The position numbers were made by a program, and so were the translations under genes. Of a stretch of 64,000 nucleotides of DNA, positions 22,849 through 26,066 are shown piece by piece. This DNA comes from the human T2T-CHM13v2.0 reference genome, Homo sapiens. Below the pieces are notes generated by a model that was given only the letters and a program-made list of their open reading frames with translations, had not been told where the DNA came from and searched no databases. Numbering within the stretch: the stretch's first letter is position 1; every line of letters starts with the position of its first letter. The DNA lies in the NCBI RefSeq assembly GCF_009914755.1, contig NC_060934.1; one strand, given 5' to 3'.

Positions 22849-23139
22849 TTTTTTTCTGAGGCAGAATCTCACTCTGTTGCCCAGGCTGTAGTGCAGTGGT
22901 ACAATCTTGGCTCACTGCAACCTCTGCTTCCCAGATTCAAGCAATTCTCCTGTCTCAGCCTCCTGAGTAGCTGGGACTACAAGCACGCACCACCACACCC
23001 GACTAATTTTTCTATTTTCAGTAGAGATGGGGTTTTGCCATGTTGGCCAGGCTGTTCTTGAACTCTAGACCTCAAGTGATCCACCCGCCTTGGCCTCCCA
23101 AAGTGCTGGGATTACAGGTGTGAGCCACTGCACCCAGCC
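22849..23139 (-). mobile_element. AluS (Sz/Sx-like)
   Basis: Full dimer; TSD tcaccatt on both sides. Confidence 0.95.
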
Positions 23140-23745
23140 AATCACCATTCTTTAGCCTCCACATATGAGTGAATGCAATGTTTAAGTATCTGCTCCTGGC
23201 TCATTTCACTTAACATAATGTCCTCCAGTTCCATCCATGTTACTGTGAATGACAGGATTTCATTTCATTTCAGAGCTGAGTAGTATTACATTGTGTATAT
23301 ATATCACATTTTCTTTACCCACTCATTTGTTTTTGGACACTAGTTTTACTCCATATCTTAGCTATTACAGTGTTGCAATAAAAATGGGGGTACAGATGTC
23401 TATTCAACATAACAATTTCCTGTCCTTTTGATATATTCCCAGTTGTACAATTTCTGACTCATCTGGTGGCTCTAGTTGTTTTTTTAAGGAACCTTGTATT
23501 GTTCTTTTTAGTGGTTGTACTAGTTTACATTCCAGCATGAATAAGAGTTCCCCTTTCTCTGCATCCTTGCCAGCACTTGTGACTTTTTGTCTTTGTAATA
23601 ATAGCCTTCCTAACTTTAACTTAGGTCTGTATTGTCTAATATAAGTATAGCTACTCTTGTTTACCTTTGGTTTCCGTTTACATAGAATATCTTTTTCCAT
23701 CCCTTAACTTTCAGTCTATGTATGTCTTTTCAGTAAGGTGAGTTT

Positions 23746-24831
23746 ATTTTATGATTATACTTTAAGTTCTTGGGTACATGTGCAGAACGTGCAGTTTTGT
23801 TACATAGGTATACACGTGCCATGGTGGTTTACTGCACCCATCAACCCGTCATCTACATTAGGTATTTCTCCTAATGCTATCCCTCCCCTAGCCCCCTACA
23901 CCACAACAGACCCCGGTGTGTGATGTTCCCCTCCCTGTGTCCATGTGTTCTCATTGTCCAACTCCCACTTATGAGTGAGAACACGCAGTGTTTGGTTTTC
24001 TGTTCCTGTGTTAGTTTTTTTAGTTTACTGAGAATGATGGTTTCCAGTTTCATCCATGTCCCTGCAATGGACACGAATGCATCCTTTTTATGGCTGCATA
24101 GTATTCCATGGTGTATATGGGCCACATTTTCTTTATCCAGTCTATCATAGATCAGCATTTGGGTTGGTTCCAAGTCTTTGCTATTGTGAACAGTGCCACA
24201 GTAAACATAGGCGTGCATGTGTCTTTATGGTAAAATGATTTACAATCCTTTGGGTATATACCCAGTAACAGGATTGCTGGGTCAAATGGTAGTTCTAGTT
24301 CTAGACCCTTGAGGAATTGCCACACTGTCTTCCACAATGGTTGAACTAATTTACACTCCTACCAACAACGTAAAAGTGTTCCTATTTCTCCATGTCCTCT
24401 CCAGCATCTGCTGTTTCCTGACTTTTTAATGATCGCCATTCTAACTGGCATGAGACGGTATCTCATTTTGGTTCTGATTTGCATTTCTCTAATGACCAGT
24501 GATGATGATCTTTTTTTCATATGTTTGTTGGCTGCATAAATGTCCTCTTTTGAGAAGTGTTGGTTCATATACTTTGCCCACTTTTTGATGTTTTTTCTTT
24601 TTTGTAAATTCCTTTGTTGATTCTGGATATTAGTCCTTTGCCAGATAGATAGATTGCAAAAATTTTCTCCCATTCAGCAGGTTGCCTGTTCACTCTGATG
24701 ACAGTTTCTTTTGCTGTGCAGAAGCTCTTTAGTTTAATTAGATCCCATTTGTCAATTGTGACTTTTGTTGTCATTGTTTTTGGTGTCTTAGACATGAAGT
24801 CTTTGCCCATGCCTATGTCCTGCATGGTATT
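23746..24831 (-). mobile_element. L1PA7/8-like 3' end (1.1 kb), 3' part of the U5-L1 chimera
   Basis: attatactttaagttct 3' terminus; frameshifted ORF2 C-terminal peptides in ORF track ([31 protein letters not shown]). Confidence 0.95.
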
Positions 24832-24906
24832 CAGAGTTGTTCCTCTCCATGGAAATCTTTAGTAAAAGGCAAACGATTCATACAATCTGAAGAGAAACCA
24901 CAGTAT
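24831..24906 (-). pseudogene. U5 snRNA retro-pseudogene (nt 1-76, truncated before the Sm site), fused to L1
   Basis: Reverse complement ATACTGTGGTTTCTCTTCAGATTGTATGAATCGTTTGCCTTTTACTAAAGATTTCCATGGAGAGGAACAACTCTGA; about 6 mismatches to remembered human U5; invariant loop-1 GCCTTTTAC intact. Confidence 0.93.
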
Positions 24907-25806
24907 GTGAGTTTCTCATAAACAGCATATAGTTAGGCCTCATTGTTGTTGTTTTTAATCTATTAACCCAGTTTTTATCTTCTAAATGGGAAATTTAATC
25001 CATTTACATTCAAGGTTACTATTGATAAGTAAGACTTACTCCTGTCACTTCATTGTTTTCTGGTTGTTTTATATAAATTTTTGTTTCTTACTTCCCATCT
25101 TATTTTTGCAATTTGGGTGGTTTTAAGTAGCCATAAGGTTTGATTCCTTTCTCCTTTGAGTATCAACTGTACCAGTGAGTTTTATAGTTTTTGCACATTT
25201 TCATAATGGTGATCATCTTTTCACTTCCAGATGTAAGATTACCTTGAACATTTCTTCTAAGGCTGGTCTAGCGGTGATAAATTCCCTTAGTCTTTGTCTG
25301 TGAAATATTTTATTTCTCTTTCATTTCTGAAGTATAATCTTTCTGAGTATAATAATTGCATTGCTAGGTTTTTTTCAGTACTTTGAATATATCATCTTAT
25401 TCTCTCCTGCCCTATAAAGTTTCTGCTGCAAAATTCAGTGTAAGTCTAATGATGATTCTTTCATAAGTGACTTGATGCTTTTCTCTTGCTGCTTTTACAA
25501 TTCTTTCATAATCTTTGACTTTTGACAATTTGAGTACATTGCGCCTCAGAGAGGACTTGTTTGAGTTGAGTCTATTTGGGGTTCTTTTAGCTTCTTAGGT
25601 CTGGATGTTCACCTTTCTCCCAAGACTTGAGAAGCTTTCTGCTATTTTTTTAATTAAATATGTTTTCCTCATTTTTTCTCTTCTCTTCTTCTTCTGAAAT
25701 GCTAATAGGAATATTTGTCCTGTAAATCCCAAAGGCTTTCTTCATTCTATTTTATTCTTTACTCTTTTGTTTTTGTTTTCCTGTGTAATTTCAAAAGACC
25801 TATCCT

Positions 25807-26066
25807 CAAGCAGGCGGATCATAAGGTCAGGAGATCGAGATCATCCTGGCTAACATGGTGAAACCCGGTCTCTACTAAAAAATACAAGAAATTAGCCAAG
25901 TATGGTGGTGGGCACCTGTGGTCCCAGCTACTTGTGAGGCTGAGGCAGGAGAATGGCATGAACCCAGGAGGCAGAGCTTGCAAGTGAGCCGAGATCGTGT
26001 CACTGCACTCCAGCCTGGGCGACAGAGCAAGACTCCATCTCAAAACAAACAAACAAACAAACAAAA
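25807..26066 (+). mobile_element. AluY, 5'-truncated
   Basis: Y-diagnostic gagatcgagatcatcctggctaac, gaatggcatgaacc, gagcttgca; (CAAA)n tail. Confidence 0.9.

What the first reader, a model, noticed from the sequence alone, without database searches (positions are those of the whole stretch)
23738..24914. U5 snRNA / L1 chimeric retrocopy with one shared TSD
Seen: on the minus strand, U5 nt 1-76 (24906 to 24831, starting exactly at U5 +1, loop-1 GCCTTTTAC intact, ending before the Sm site) is fused with at most 1 nt overlap to about 1.1 kb of L1PA7/8 3' end. The whole unit is flanked by GTGAGTTT (23738-23745, 24907-24914) and interrupts an older L1 that resumes colinearly. Known: snRNA-L1 chimeras made by L1 machinery (template switching or RNA ligation) are described, mostly with U6; U5 versions are rarer. 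Inference: this is a single integration event. Because U5 is Pol II-made and cut internally here, template switching or ligation of a cleaved U5 fragment fits better than the U6 terminal-ligation route.
Basis: partly seen in the sequence, partly recalled or inferred. Interest (0 to 1): 0.85.

Follow-up and report, generated by a model that had tools for sequence, protein, structure and literature searches.

The report
Known U5 snRNA–L1 chimeric retrocopy
This is a dead, roughly 1.2-kb retrocopy in which the first 76 bases of U5 spliceosomal RNA are fused to the tail end of an L1 retrotransposon; it was inserted in one event and has already been catalogued in print, so it is real but ordinary.

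Summary
On the minus strand, window 24906-24831 is U5 snRNA nt 1-76. Rfam U5 scores 51.2 bits against a cut-off of 40, and there are 6 differences in 76 nt from the chr15 U5B-type gene. This piece is joined directly to 1.08 kb of L1 3' end that starts at ORF2p residue ~984. One A is shared at the junction. The unit is bracketed by an exact 8-nt duplication (24907-24914 and 23738-23745).

Six of six paralogues of the interrupted old L1 carry that 8-mer once and run straight across the site. The junction is unique among the scored genome hits. The two parts show similar decay. Together these results indicate a single L1-mediated insertion.

The locus is not new. Its four measured parameters match row 8 of Supplemental Table 1 in Doucet et al. 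2015 ("U5_3'trunc-L1", L1 1084, TSD 8, cleavage AGTTT-CT, truncation 78). That paper interprets it as an internal template switch and says Buzdin et al. 2003 had already seen it. The locus is missing from the U5 sheet of a 2026 catalogue of 253 chimeras.

Sequence alone cannot decide between template switching and prior RNA ligation.

One small unexplained point: the L1 parts of both sense-oriented U5/L1 chimeras found start with ATACCAT.

The parts
24907..24914 (-). 5' copy of the target-site duplication (AAACTCAC on the minus strand, GTGAGTTT on plus). On the plus strand it is followed by CT, so the L1 endonuclease nick reads 5'-AGTTT/CT-3'.
   Evidence: It matches 'cleavage AGTTT-CT, TSD 8' in Doucet 2015 Suppl. 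Table 1 row 8.
24831..24906 (-). U5 snRNA nt 1-76 (U5B-like, with T at nt 25). This is the whole 5' stem-loop with loop 1 (24870-24862). The Sm site and 3' hairpin are missing. The base at 24831 (A76) could equally come from L1.
   Evidence: Rfam RF00020, 51.2 bits. Alignment to genomic U5 genes. BLAST 1-76 at 92%. MFE fold of U5 puts nt 75-78 at the 3' foot of the 5' domain.
23754..24830 (-). 5'-truncated L1 3' end: the ORF2 C-terminal region from about residue 984, with frameshifts, plus the 3' UTR ending in ..AAAGTATAAT.
   Evidence: PDB sequence matches to LINE-1 ORF2p. Genome hits 87-89% identical over the full length. 3' end aligned with 11 of the 13 related copies tried; one gave no match and one (L028) came out misregistered. 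Groups with a labelled L1PA7 in the tree.
23746..23753 (-). Short, decayed A-rich tail (CATAAAAT) between the L1 3' end and the 3' TSD.
   Evidence: Comparison with the 3' ends of related copies, which carry A-rich tails at this point.
23738..23745 (-). 3' copy of the target-site duplication (AAACTCAC on the minus strand).
24915..25296 (-). Upstream part of the interrupted older L1: a decayed ORF2 endonuclease N-terminus ending ..CC(L)*ETH at the insertion site.
   Evidence: 73-78% identity to 6 of 6 paralogues. Aligns to the ORF2 start region of younger L1 copies, one of which carries an ORF there that matches ORF2p residues 1-47 in the PDB. The protein-level match is weak (E 0.002).
23615..23737 (-). 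Downstream continuation of the same older L1, colinear with the upstream part.
   Evidence: The alignments to paralogues run for about 131 nt from the TSD.

Best explanation
This is a processed, non-functional chimeric retrocopy made in one L1 retrotransposition event. L1 endonuclease nicked an old L1 at 5'-AGTTT/CT-3'. Reverse transcription was primed on the poly(A) of an L1PA7-or-older RNA and copied its last ~1.08 kb. The enzyme then left the L1 template and continued on U5 snRNA, entering at nt 76 (76-78 if one mismatch is allowed). That point is the 3' foot of the 5' stem-loop, just upstream of the Sm site. It ran off at the capped 5' end. Joining to the other side of the staggered break produced the 8-bp duplication. 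What is shown: the anatomy, the single TSD, the colinear host, the unique junction and the similar decay of the two parts. What is inferred: the order of events, and that the join was made by template switching rather than on a pre-ligated RNA. I put the single event at about 0.95. The confidence given here is for the template-switch version.
For: U5 nt 1-76 starts exactly at +1 and lies in the same orientation as the L1 piece, with only one shared base at the join. One exact 8-nt TSD abuts U5 +1 and the A-rich tail. In 6 of 6 host-family paralogues the 8-mer occurs once and the sequence is colinear. A 91-nt query across the junction matched end to end only at this locus, among 40 hits scored of 747 candidates; the other 39 covered the L1 side and at most the last 16 U5-side bases (from query position 31 or later). 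Decay is similar in the two parts: 6/76 = 7.9% for U5 (3 of about 70 outside the CpG sites) against a star-tree branch of 5.9% (5.6% non-CpG) for the L1 piece. The nick site ends in TTT. Doucet et al. 2015 (main-text section 6 and Suppl. Table 1 read) list a U5-L1 with the same four parameters. They propose an internal template switch from L1 RNA to U5, and note that the three sense-type U5 chimeras are all 3'-truncated (at positions 83, 78 and 98).
Against: Nothing in the DNA separates a switch during reverse transcription from reverse transcription of an RNA that was already joined. One base of microhomology is what chance gives. The nick site AGTTT/CT departs from the TTTT/AA consensus. The A-tail is only 8 nt and impure. 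The age match of the two parts rests on 76 nt, so it is a weak test. No orthologous primate locus could be examined.
Confidence: 0.6

Rival explanations
1. RNA ligation came before retrotransposition. A U5 5' fragment cut in the single-stranded linker (ending at nt 75-78 with a 2',3'-cyclic phosphate) was ligated to a 5'-OH L1 RNA fragment by RtcB. This is the route the 2026 Cell Genomics paper attributes to Moldovan et al. 2019 for U6/L1. The joined RNA was then copied in one ordinary TPRT run.
For: This gives the same end product: sense-sense orientation, a direct join and one TSD. The 2026 Cell Genomics paper treats ligation and template switching as equally open for sense-oriented chimeras, including truncated U3 and 28S pieces (passages read). 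The U5 breakpoints of both sense U5/L1 chimeras (76-78 here, 82-84 on chr3) fall in the linker between the 5' stem-loop and the Sm site, where a nuclease could cut.
Against: U5 is not known to me to carry a cyclic-phosphate end; the natural U6 3' end does (recalled). An extra cleavage step is needed on both RNAs. Doucet et al. prefer an internal switch. No RNA data were available here.
Confidence: 0.3
2. The locus is a retrocopy of a transcript from a source locus where a U5 sequence already lay directly upstream of a truncated L1 (read-through or 5' transduction), so the fusion predates this insertion.
For: The unit starts at U5 +1, as a transcript driven by a U5 promoter would.
Against: Among the 40 hits scored of 747 candidates, no other place in the genome matches across the junction. 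The only other sense U5/L1 fusion found, on chr3, has different breakpoints on both sides. snRNA promoters direct 3'-box processing rather than long polyadenylated transcripts (recalled knowledge).
Confidence: 0.04
3. Two independent insertions, a 5'-truncated L1 and a 3'-truncated U5 pseudogene, landed side by side by chance.
For: 3'-truncated U5 pseudogenes without L1 do exist, for example chr4 (U5 1-69, A-rich tail, 13-nt TSD) and chr1 (U5 1-63 inside an Alu).
Against: There is no second TSD around either part and no A-tail after the U5 piece. The rest of U5 does not reappear after the L1. The host paralogues show a single 8-nt duplication for the whole unit.
Confidence: 0.02

Closest known systems
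U5-L1 chimera no. 8 of Doucet et al. 2015 (Mol Biol Evol 32:1815, PMC4476161, Suppl. Table 1), said there to have been seen earlier by Buzdin et al. 2003
   Same: L1 length is 1084 there, against 1083-1085 here depending on where the junction is put. TSD is 8 in both. The cleavage site AGTTT-CT is identical. The 3' truncation is 78 there, against 76 here, or 78 if a G-to-A change at nt 77 is allowed. The type is 'U5-L1' (sense, template switch). In my U5 scan I checked the flanks of 8 of the 16 3'-truncated hits and found only two sense U5/L1 fusions, this one and chr3; the chr3 locus fits their row 5.
   Different: Nothing that can be measured. The paper's table gives no coordinates, so identity rests on the four matching parameters. 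Buzdin 2003 and Garcia-Perez 2007 are not held in the library, so I could not confirm the earlier report.
chr3 U5/L1PA7 chimera (Doucet no. 5; hg38 chr3:40498921-40499003 in the 2026 Cell Genomics Table S2; locus L019 here)
   Same: It has sense orientation and a U5B-type T at nt 25. U5 starts at +1 and is cut in the linker before the Sm site. The L1 part starts with ATACCAT right after the shared bases.
   Different: The U5 breakpoint is 82-84 rather than 76. The L1 breakpoint lies about 380 nt further 3' (about 707 against 1087 nt from the L1 end). It has 2 shared bases (AG). Its 3' TSD was lost to a later Alu, according to Doucet et al..
U3 snoRNA/L1 chimeras
   Same: They are sense-oriented. 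The small RNA starts at +1 and is cut internally at a recurrent place: nt 69-77 in the 20 loci I looked at, 7 of them followed by L1 within 30 nt. The 2026 paper also notes recurrent U3 truncation.
   Different: It is a different small RNA, and these are more numerous (22 rows in the U3 sheet of Table S2). None of the 7 L1 parts begins at an ATACCAT site.
U6/L1 chimeras
   Same: They share the overall architecture: snRNA at the 5' end, 5'-truncated L1 at the 3' end, one TSD and an L1 endonuclease site.
   Different: U6 is full length in nearly all of them and is joined at its natural 3' end. The RtcB ligation route was worked out for that end. Here the snRNA is a Pol II, Sm-class RNA cut internally.
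Inverted U5/L1 or U5/SVA chimeras (twin-priming type)
   Same: A U5 fragment and an L1 lie within one TSD.
   Different: In those chimeras U5 is antisense to the L1 and is cut in loop 1 at nt 36-48 (four of the five rows of the U5 sheet). Here the orientation is sense and loop 1 is intact.

Membership tests
snRNA/L1 chimeric retrocopy (Buzdin / Garcia-Perez / Doucet class, sense type) | The 5' part is a copy of a small nuclear RNA beginning at its +1. | tested here: met
   Window 24906 equals U5 nt 1, directly after the TSD.
snRNA/L1 chimeric retrocopy (sense type) | The 3' part is a 5'-truncated L1 that reaches the L1 3' end and an A-rich tail. | tested here: met
   ORF2p residue ~984 onward. 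The 3' end ..AAAGTATAAT plus the 8-nt tail was aligned with related copies. The tail is short and impure.
snRNA/L1 chimeric retrocopy (sense type) | Both parts are in the same orientation and joined directly, with no filler. | tested here: met
   Junction ..CTCTG(A)ATACCAT.., with one ambiguous base, compared with 7 L1 copies and 2 U5 genes.
snRNA/L1 chimeric retrocopy (sense type) | A single target-site duplication brackets the whole unit, and none brackets either part alone. | tested here: met
   Exact 8-mer at both ends. 6 of 6 host paralogues show an 8-nt overlap of the two flank alignments. The chance rate is 643 in 200000 with slack.
snRNA/L1 chimeric retrocopy (sense type) | The nick site resembles the L1 endonuclease consensus TTTT/AA. 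| tested here: inconclusive
   The site is AGTTT/CT: three T before the nick but no A after it. Doucet's table lists the same site.
snRNA/L1 chimeric retrocopy (sense type) | Both parts are present or absent together at the orthologous site in other primates. | not testable with these tools
   No primate genome other than the window's own assembly is held.
U5 spliceosomal RNA, Rfam RF00020 (as a functional gene) | Covariance-model score above the gathering cut-off. | tested here: met
   51.2 bits against 40.
U5 spliceosomal RNA, Rfam RF00020 (as a functional gene) | Full length, with the Sm site and 3' stem-loop. | tested here: not met
   The match covers only model positions 7-74 of 117, and the alignment stops at nt 76. 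This is a fragment, not a gene.
U6/L1-type chimera (join at the snRNA's natural 3' end) | The snRNA is full length at the junction. | tested here: not met
   U5 ends at nt 76 of 116.
Twin-priming (inverted) U5/L1 chimera | The snRNA is antisense to the L1. | tested here: not met
   Both parts are on the minus strand in sense order.

The most novel reading that the evidence does not exclude
Sense U5/L1 chimeras may not be random joins. In both examples found in the genome, U5 is cut in the ~10-nt single-stranded linker between the 5' stem-loop and the Sm site (nt 76-78 and 82-84). In both, the L1 part begins with the same heptamer, ATACCAT, at two different L1 positions. Two random L1 positions share their next 7-mer with probability 1.7e-4 before allowing for slack and for the fact that this was noticed after the event. 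This could mean that the partner is the assembled, Sm-ring-bound U5 snRNP, and that a U5-specific feature selects AUACCAU sites on L1 RNA. U5's own 5' end also begins AUAC. The effect does not extend to U3/L1 joins (0 of 7).
Probability: 0.07. Interest if true: 0.45.

Novelty: already known. Interest (0 to 1): 0.12.

Why it matters
The locus matters little in itself. It is a decayed, promoterless fragment with no sign of function. This exact locus, its anatomy and its interpretation are in print: Doucet et al. 2015, row 8, which credits Buzdin et al. 2003.

It has three minor uses. First, it is one of only two sense-oriented U5/L1 fusions that the two catalogues read here and my partial check of the genome's U5 copies identify. 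That makes it one of very few data points on how L1 reverse transcriptase, or an RNA ligase, engages an Sm-class snRNA internally. Second, it is absent from the U5 sheet of the 2026 catalogue of 253 chimeras, so that list is not complete for U5. Third, the RefSeq pseudogene span RNU5B-6P (24729-25006, 278 nt) is far wider than the 76 nt that are actually U5.

Tried and rejected
Searches that returned nothing:
- Pfam on five stop-free translations from the region (four from the L1 piece, one from the downstream host flank, 23404-23703) gave 0 families. The L1 identity therefore rests on PDB sequence matches and genome copies.
- PDB sequence searches with the host flanks gave nothing: one ORF and two read-throughs with X at the stops. 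The host was named through DNA alignment to younger L1 copies whose ORF matches ORF2p residues 1-47, plus a weak BLASTP match (E 0.002).
- A full-text search for 'RNU5B-6P' found one unrelated paper.

Sources that could not be read:
- Buzdin 2003 (by DOI and PMC169886) and Garcia-Perez 2007 (PMC1855177) are not held. I therefore could not see the first description.

Other genome U5 hits with a partial model match:
- The chr4, chr22 and chr1 loci are not L1 chimeras.
- Three more 3'-truncated copies have no adjacent L1.
- The flanks of the other eight 3'-truncated hits (chr4:58517357, chr3:155122782, chr5, chr20, chr9, chr8, chr3:81325262 and chr1:163697053) were not checked.

Tests of the ATACCAT idea:
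- It was tested as a general L1 RNA break site. 0 of 7 U3/L1 junctions use it, and the chr19 U3/L1PA2 junction lies 16 nt downstream of the site used here.
- Local similarity between the L1 sequence just 5' of the junction and U5 nt 55-75 made BLAST extend some hits to query position 31. This stretch is purine-rich and lies on the uncopied side of the switch, so I treat it as chance.
- A splice-site reading fails. U5 A76|GU looks like a 5' splice site, but the L1 side is not AG|. At chr3 the reverse holds.

Technical failures:
- One labelled L1PA16 region was fetched at wrong coordinates and gave no match. No labelled L1PA8 could be located, so PA7 and PA8 were not separated.
- Several paper-tool calls failed on term format.
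- One fetch failed and was repeated.
Full report
**What is there**

Read on the minus strand, the sequence runs in this order:
- old L1 sequence;
- AAACTCAC (24914-24907);
- a U5-like stretch beginning ATACTGTGG at 24906;
- L1 coding sequence from about 24830;
- the L1 3' end ..AAAGTATAAT (ending at 23754);
- an 8-nt A-rich tail, CATAAAAT (23753-23746);
- AAACTCAC again (23745-23738);
- old L1 sequence once more.

**The U5 part**

Rfam's U5 model (RF00020) matches 24833-24900 (-) at 51.2 bits, above its gathering score of 40. The match covers model positions 7-74 of 117.

I took real U5 genes from the window's own assembly with the same model and aligned them. Window 24906..24831 is U5 nt 1-76, with no extra base between the duplication and +1. 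It differs at 6 of 76 positions from the chr15 U5B-type copy and at 7 of 76 from the U5A-type copy. Three of the six differences are at the three CpG sites of this segment. The T at nt 25 is the U5B state, in line with the annotated name RNU5B-6P.

Loop 1 (GCCTTTTAC) is intact. Everything from nt 77 on, that is the Sm site and the 3' hairpin, is missing.

In the minimum-free-energy fold of the genomic U5 sequences, nt 75-78 pair with nt 3-6. The break therefore lies at the 3' foot of the 5' domain. In Rfam's consensus the same positions are unpaired.

**The L1 part**

Two stop-free translations of 24858-24359 match solved LINE-1 ORF2p chains. One matches residues 984-1065 (E 8.7e-34) and the other residues 1053-1144 (E 1.5e-37). 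Pfam found nothing.

A genome search with the 1085-nt piece produced 17283 first-look candidates. Forty were scored; apart from the locus itself they were 87-89% identical over essentially the full length.

At the junction, 7 of 7 L1 copies read ..GGCA|ATACCAT.. (one has G for the C), and U5 reads ..CTCTGA|GTC... The window has CTCTGAATACCAT. Only the A at 24831 can belong to either parent. Doucet et al. count the truncation at 78, which corresponds to allowing a G-to-A change at nt 77 followed by the matching T.

**One event or two**

The 8-mer abuts both ends of the whole unit. Neither part has flanking repeats of its own, the U5 piece has no A-tail, and the rest of U5 does not reappear beyond the L1.

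As a stand-in for the empty site, I aligned the two flanks to six paralogous copies of the interrupted old repeat. In 6 of 6, the upstream alignment ends and the downstream alignment begins with an overlap of exactly 8 nt. The family therefore carries the 8-mer once and is colinear across the site.

The old repeat is the start of an L1 ORF2. The flanks align to the region of younger L1 copies where one of them carries an ORF that matches ORF2p residues 1-47, and the insertion follows the ..ETH codons. Direct PDB searches with the decayed flanks found nothing.

A random-placement control gave an exact 8-mer within +-5 nt of both ends in 643 of 200000 trials.

A 91-nt query across the junction matched end to end only at this locus among 40 scored hits of 747 candidates. 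There is thus no sign of a source locus or a sister copy.

The decay of the two parts agrees within the wide error of 76 nt. U5 shows 7.9% overall, with 3 changes in about 70 bases outside the CpG sites. The L1 piece has a star-tree branch of 5.9%, or 5.6% outside CpG-prone columns.

**Subfamily and age**

I used L1 copies whose subfamily is given in a published table and which I could locate through their attached U3 or U5 pieces. The tree forms a ladder L1PA2, PA3, PA5, PA6, followed by a star-like cluster that holds a labelled L1PA7 and the window's piece on a rather long branch.

It excludes PA2 to PA6. It cannot separate PA7 from PA8, because no labelled PA8 copy was available. An age of a few tens of millions of years is my inference from these figures.

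**Already in print**

Doucet et al. 2015 (PMC4476161) surveyed human snRNA copies. I read section 6 of the main text and Supplemental Table 1.

Row 8 of that table is 'U5_3'trunc-L1, length 1084, TSD 8, cleavage AGTTT-CT, 3' truncation position 78, U5-L1'. The window gives:
- an L1 length of 1083-1085, depending on where the junction is placed;
- a TSD of 8;
- the plus-strand nick GTGAGTTT/CT;
- a truncation at 76-78.

In my scan with the full U5 sequence (40 hits scored of 155 candidates), 16 hits were 3'-truncated copies. I checked the flanks of 8 of them. Only two have L1 fused in sense: this locus and one on chr3 that fits their row 5. I therefore regard this locus as their row 8, although the table gives no coordinates.

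[quoted passage not shown] It says the switch into U5 is internal, unlike U6, and that sequence 8 had been observed by Buzdin et al. 2003. That paper and Garcia-Perez et al. 2007 are not held here.

The 2026 Cell Genomics paper (PMC13174262) presents 253 candidate chimeras as the most comprehensive catalogue to date; that count and wording come from its bioRxiv version. The U5 sheet of its Table S2 has five rows (chr3, chr6, chr8, chr9, chrX) and none on chr10. Its mmc3 file contains no chr10 entry at all. This locus is therefore missing from that list.

**Mechanism**

The anatomy fits target-primed reverse transcription that begins on the L1 poly(A) at a nick ending in TTT. It copies 1.08 kb of L1, then continues on U5 from nt 76 to the cap.

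The same product would arise if a U5 5' fragment had first been ligated to an L1 RNA fragment. The 2026 paper leaves both routes open for sense-oriented chimeras. Nothing in the DNA tells them apart.

I favour the switch (0.6) over ligation (0.3). The reason is that it needs no prior cleavage of two RNAs, and an internal entry just 5' of the Sm site is plausible for an Sm-ring-bound particle. That last step is inference.

I reject two independent insertions (0.02). A retrocopy of a pre-fused source is unlikely (0.04).

**An unexplained detail**

The chr3 chimera reads ..TTA(AG)|ATACCATCTCATGCC.. and this one reads ..CTG(A)|ATACCATGCAGG... Both L1 parts thus start with ATACCAT, at two different L1 positions, 707 and 1087 nt from the 3' end of one reference copy. 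The heptamer occurs four times in 5.06 kb of that copy.

Two random L1 positions share their next 7-mer with probability 1.7e-4. That figure comes before allowing for junction slack and for the fact that I noticed the match after the event.

The motif is not a general L1 break site, since 0 of 7 U3/L1 junctions use it. With only two cases I treat it as probably chance and record it as a lead.

**Verdict**

The feature is real. It is already known, and it has no evident function.

Noticed in passing
window 24824-24830, and L019:2003-1997 (minus strand; G000 chr3): Both sense-oriented U5/L1 chimeras found have L1 parts that begin with the same heptamer, ATACCAT, at two different L1 positions. 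The chance of two random L1 positions sharing a 7-mer is 1.7e-4, assessed after the event. Both U5 breakpoints (76-78 and 82-84) lie in the linker before the Sm site.
   Followed up: partly
window 24729-25006: The RefSeq pseudogene RNU5B-6P spans 278 nt, but only 24831-24906 (76 nt) is U5. The remainder is about 102 nt of the fused L1 and about 100 nt of the older host L1 (including the TSD).
   Followed up: yes
window 23738-24914: This chimera is absent from the U5 sheet of Table S2 (5 rows) and from mmc3 of the 2026 Cell Genomics catalogue of 253 LINE-1 chimeras, although it is row 8 of Doucet et al. 2015. A possible reason is that the U5 stretch is not repeat-masked (the hub's mask list stops at 24825).
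   Followed up: partly
L065-L084 (20 loci of G000): Truncated U3 snoRNA copies end recurrently at nt 69-77. This holds whether they are followed by L1 (7 of 20) or by A-rich or other sequence (13 of 20). It points to a preferred internal entry or cut site in U3, much like the one in U5.
   Followed up: partly
L009:2421-2489 (chr4) and L011:1997-2060 (chr1): These are other 3'-truncated U5 retrocopies without L1. The chr4 copy has U5 1-69, an A-rich tail and a 13-nt TSD (GAATAGGTTAATA). The chr1 copy has U5 to about nt 63, inserted just 3' of the T-run of an antisense Alu, with a ~9-nt TSD.
   Followed up: partly
window 25893-25944 (+) and 23023-23138 (-): Rfam matches to mir-1268 (63.3 bits, below its cut-off of 83) and to Metazoa_SRP (37 bits, below 70) are what Alu elements typically give. 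I did not examine them further.
   Followed up: no
window about 23400-23614 (-): Alignments of the host old L1 to its paralogues stop about 131 nt downstream of the TSD in 5 of 6 copies. The old element may be broken or interrupted again there.
   Followed up: no
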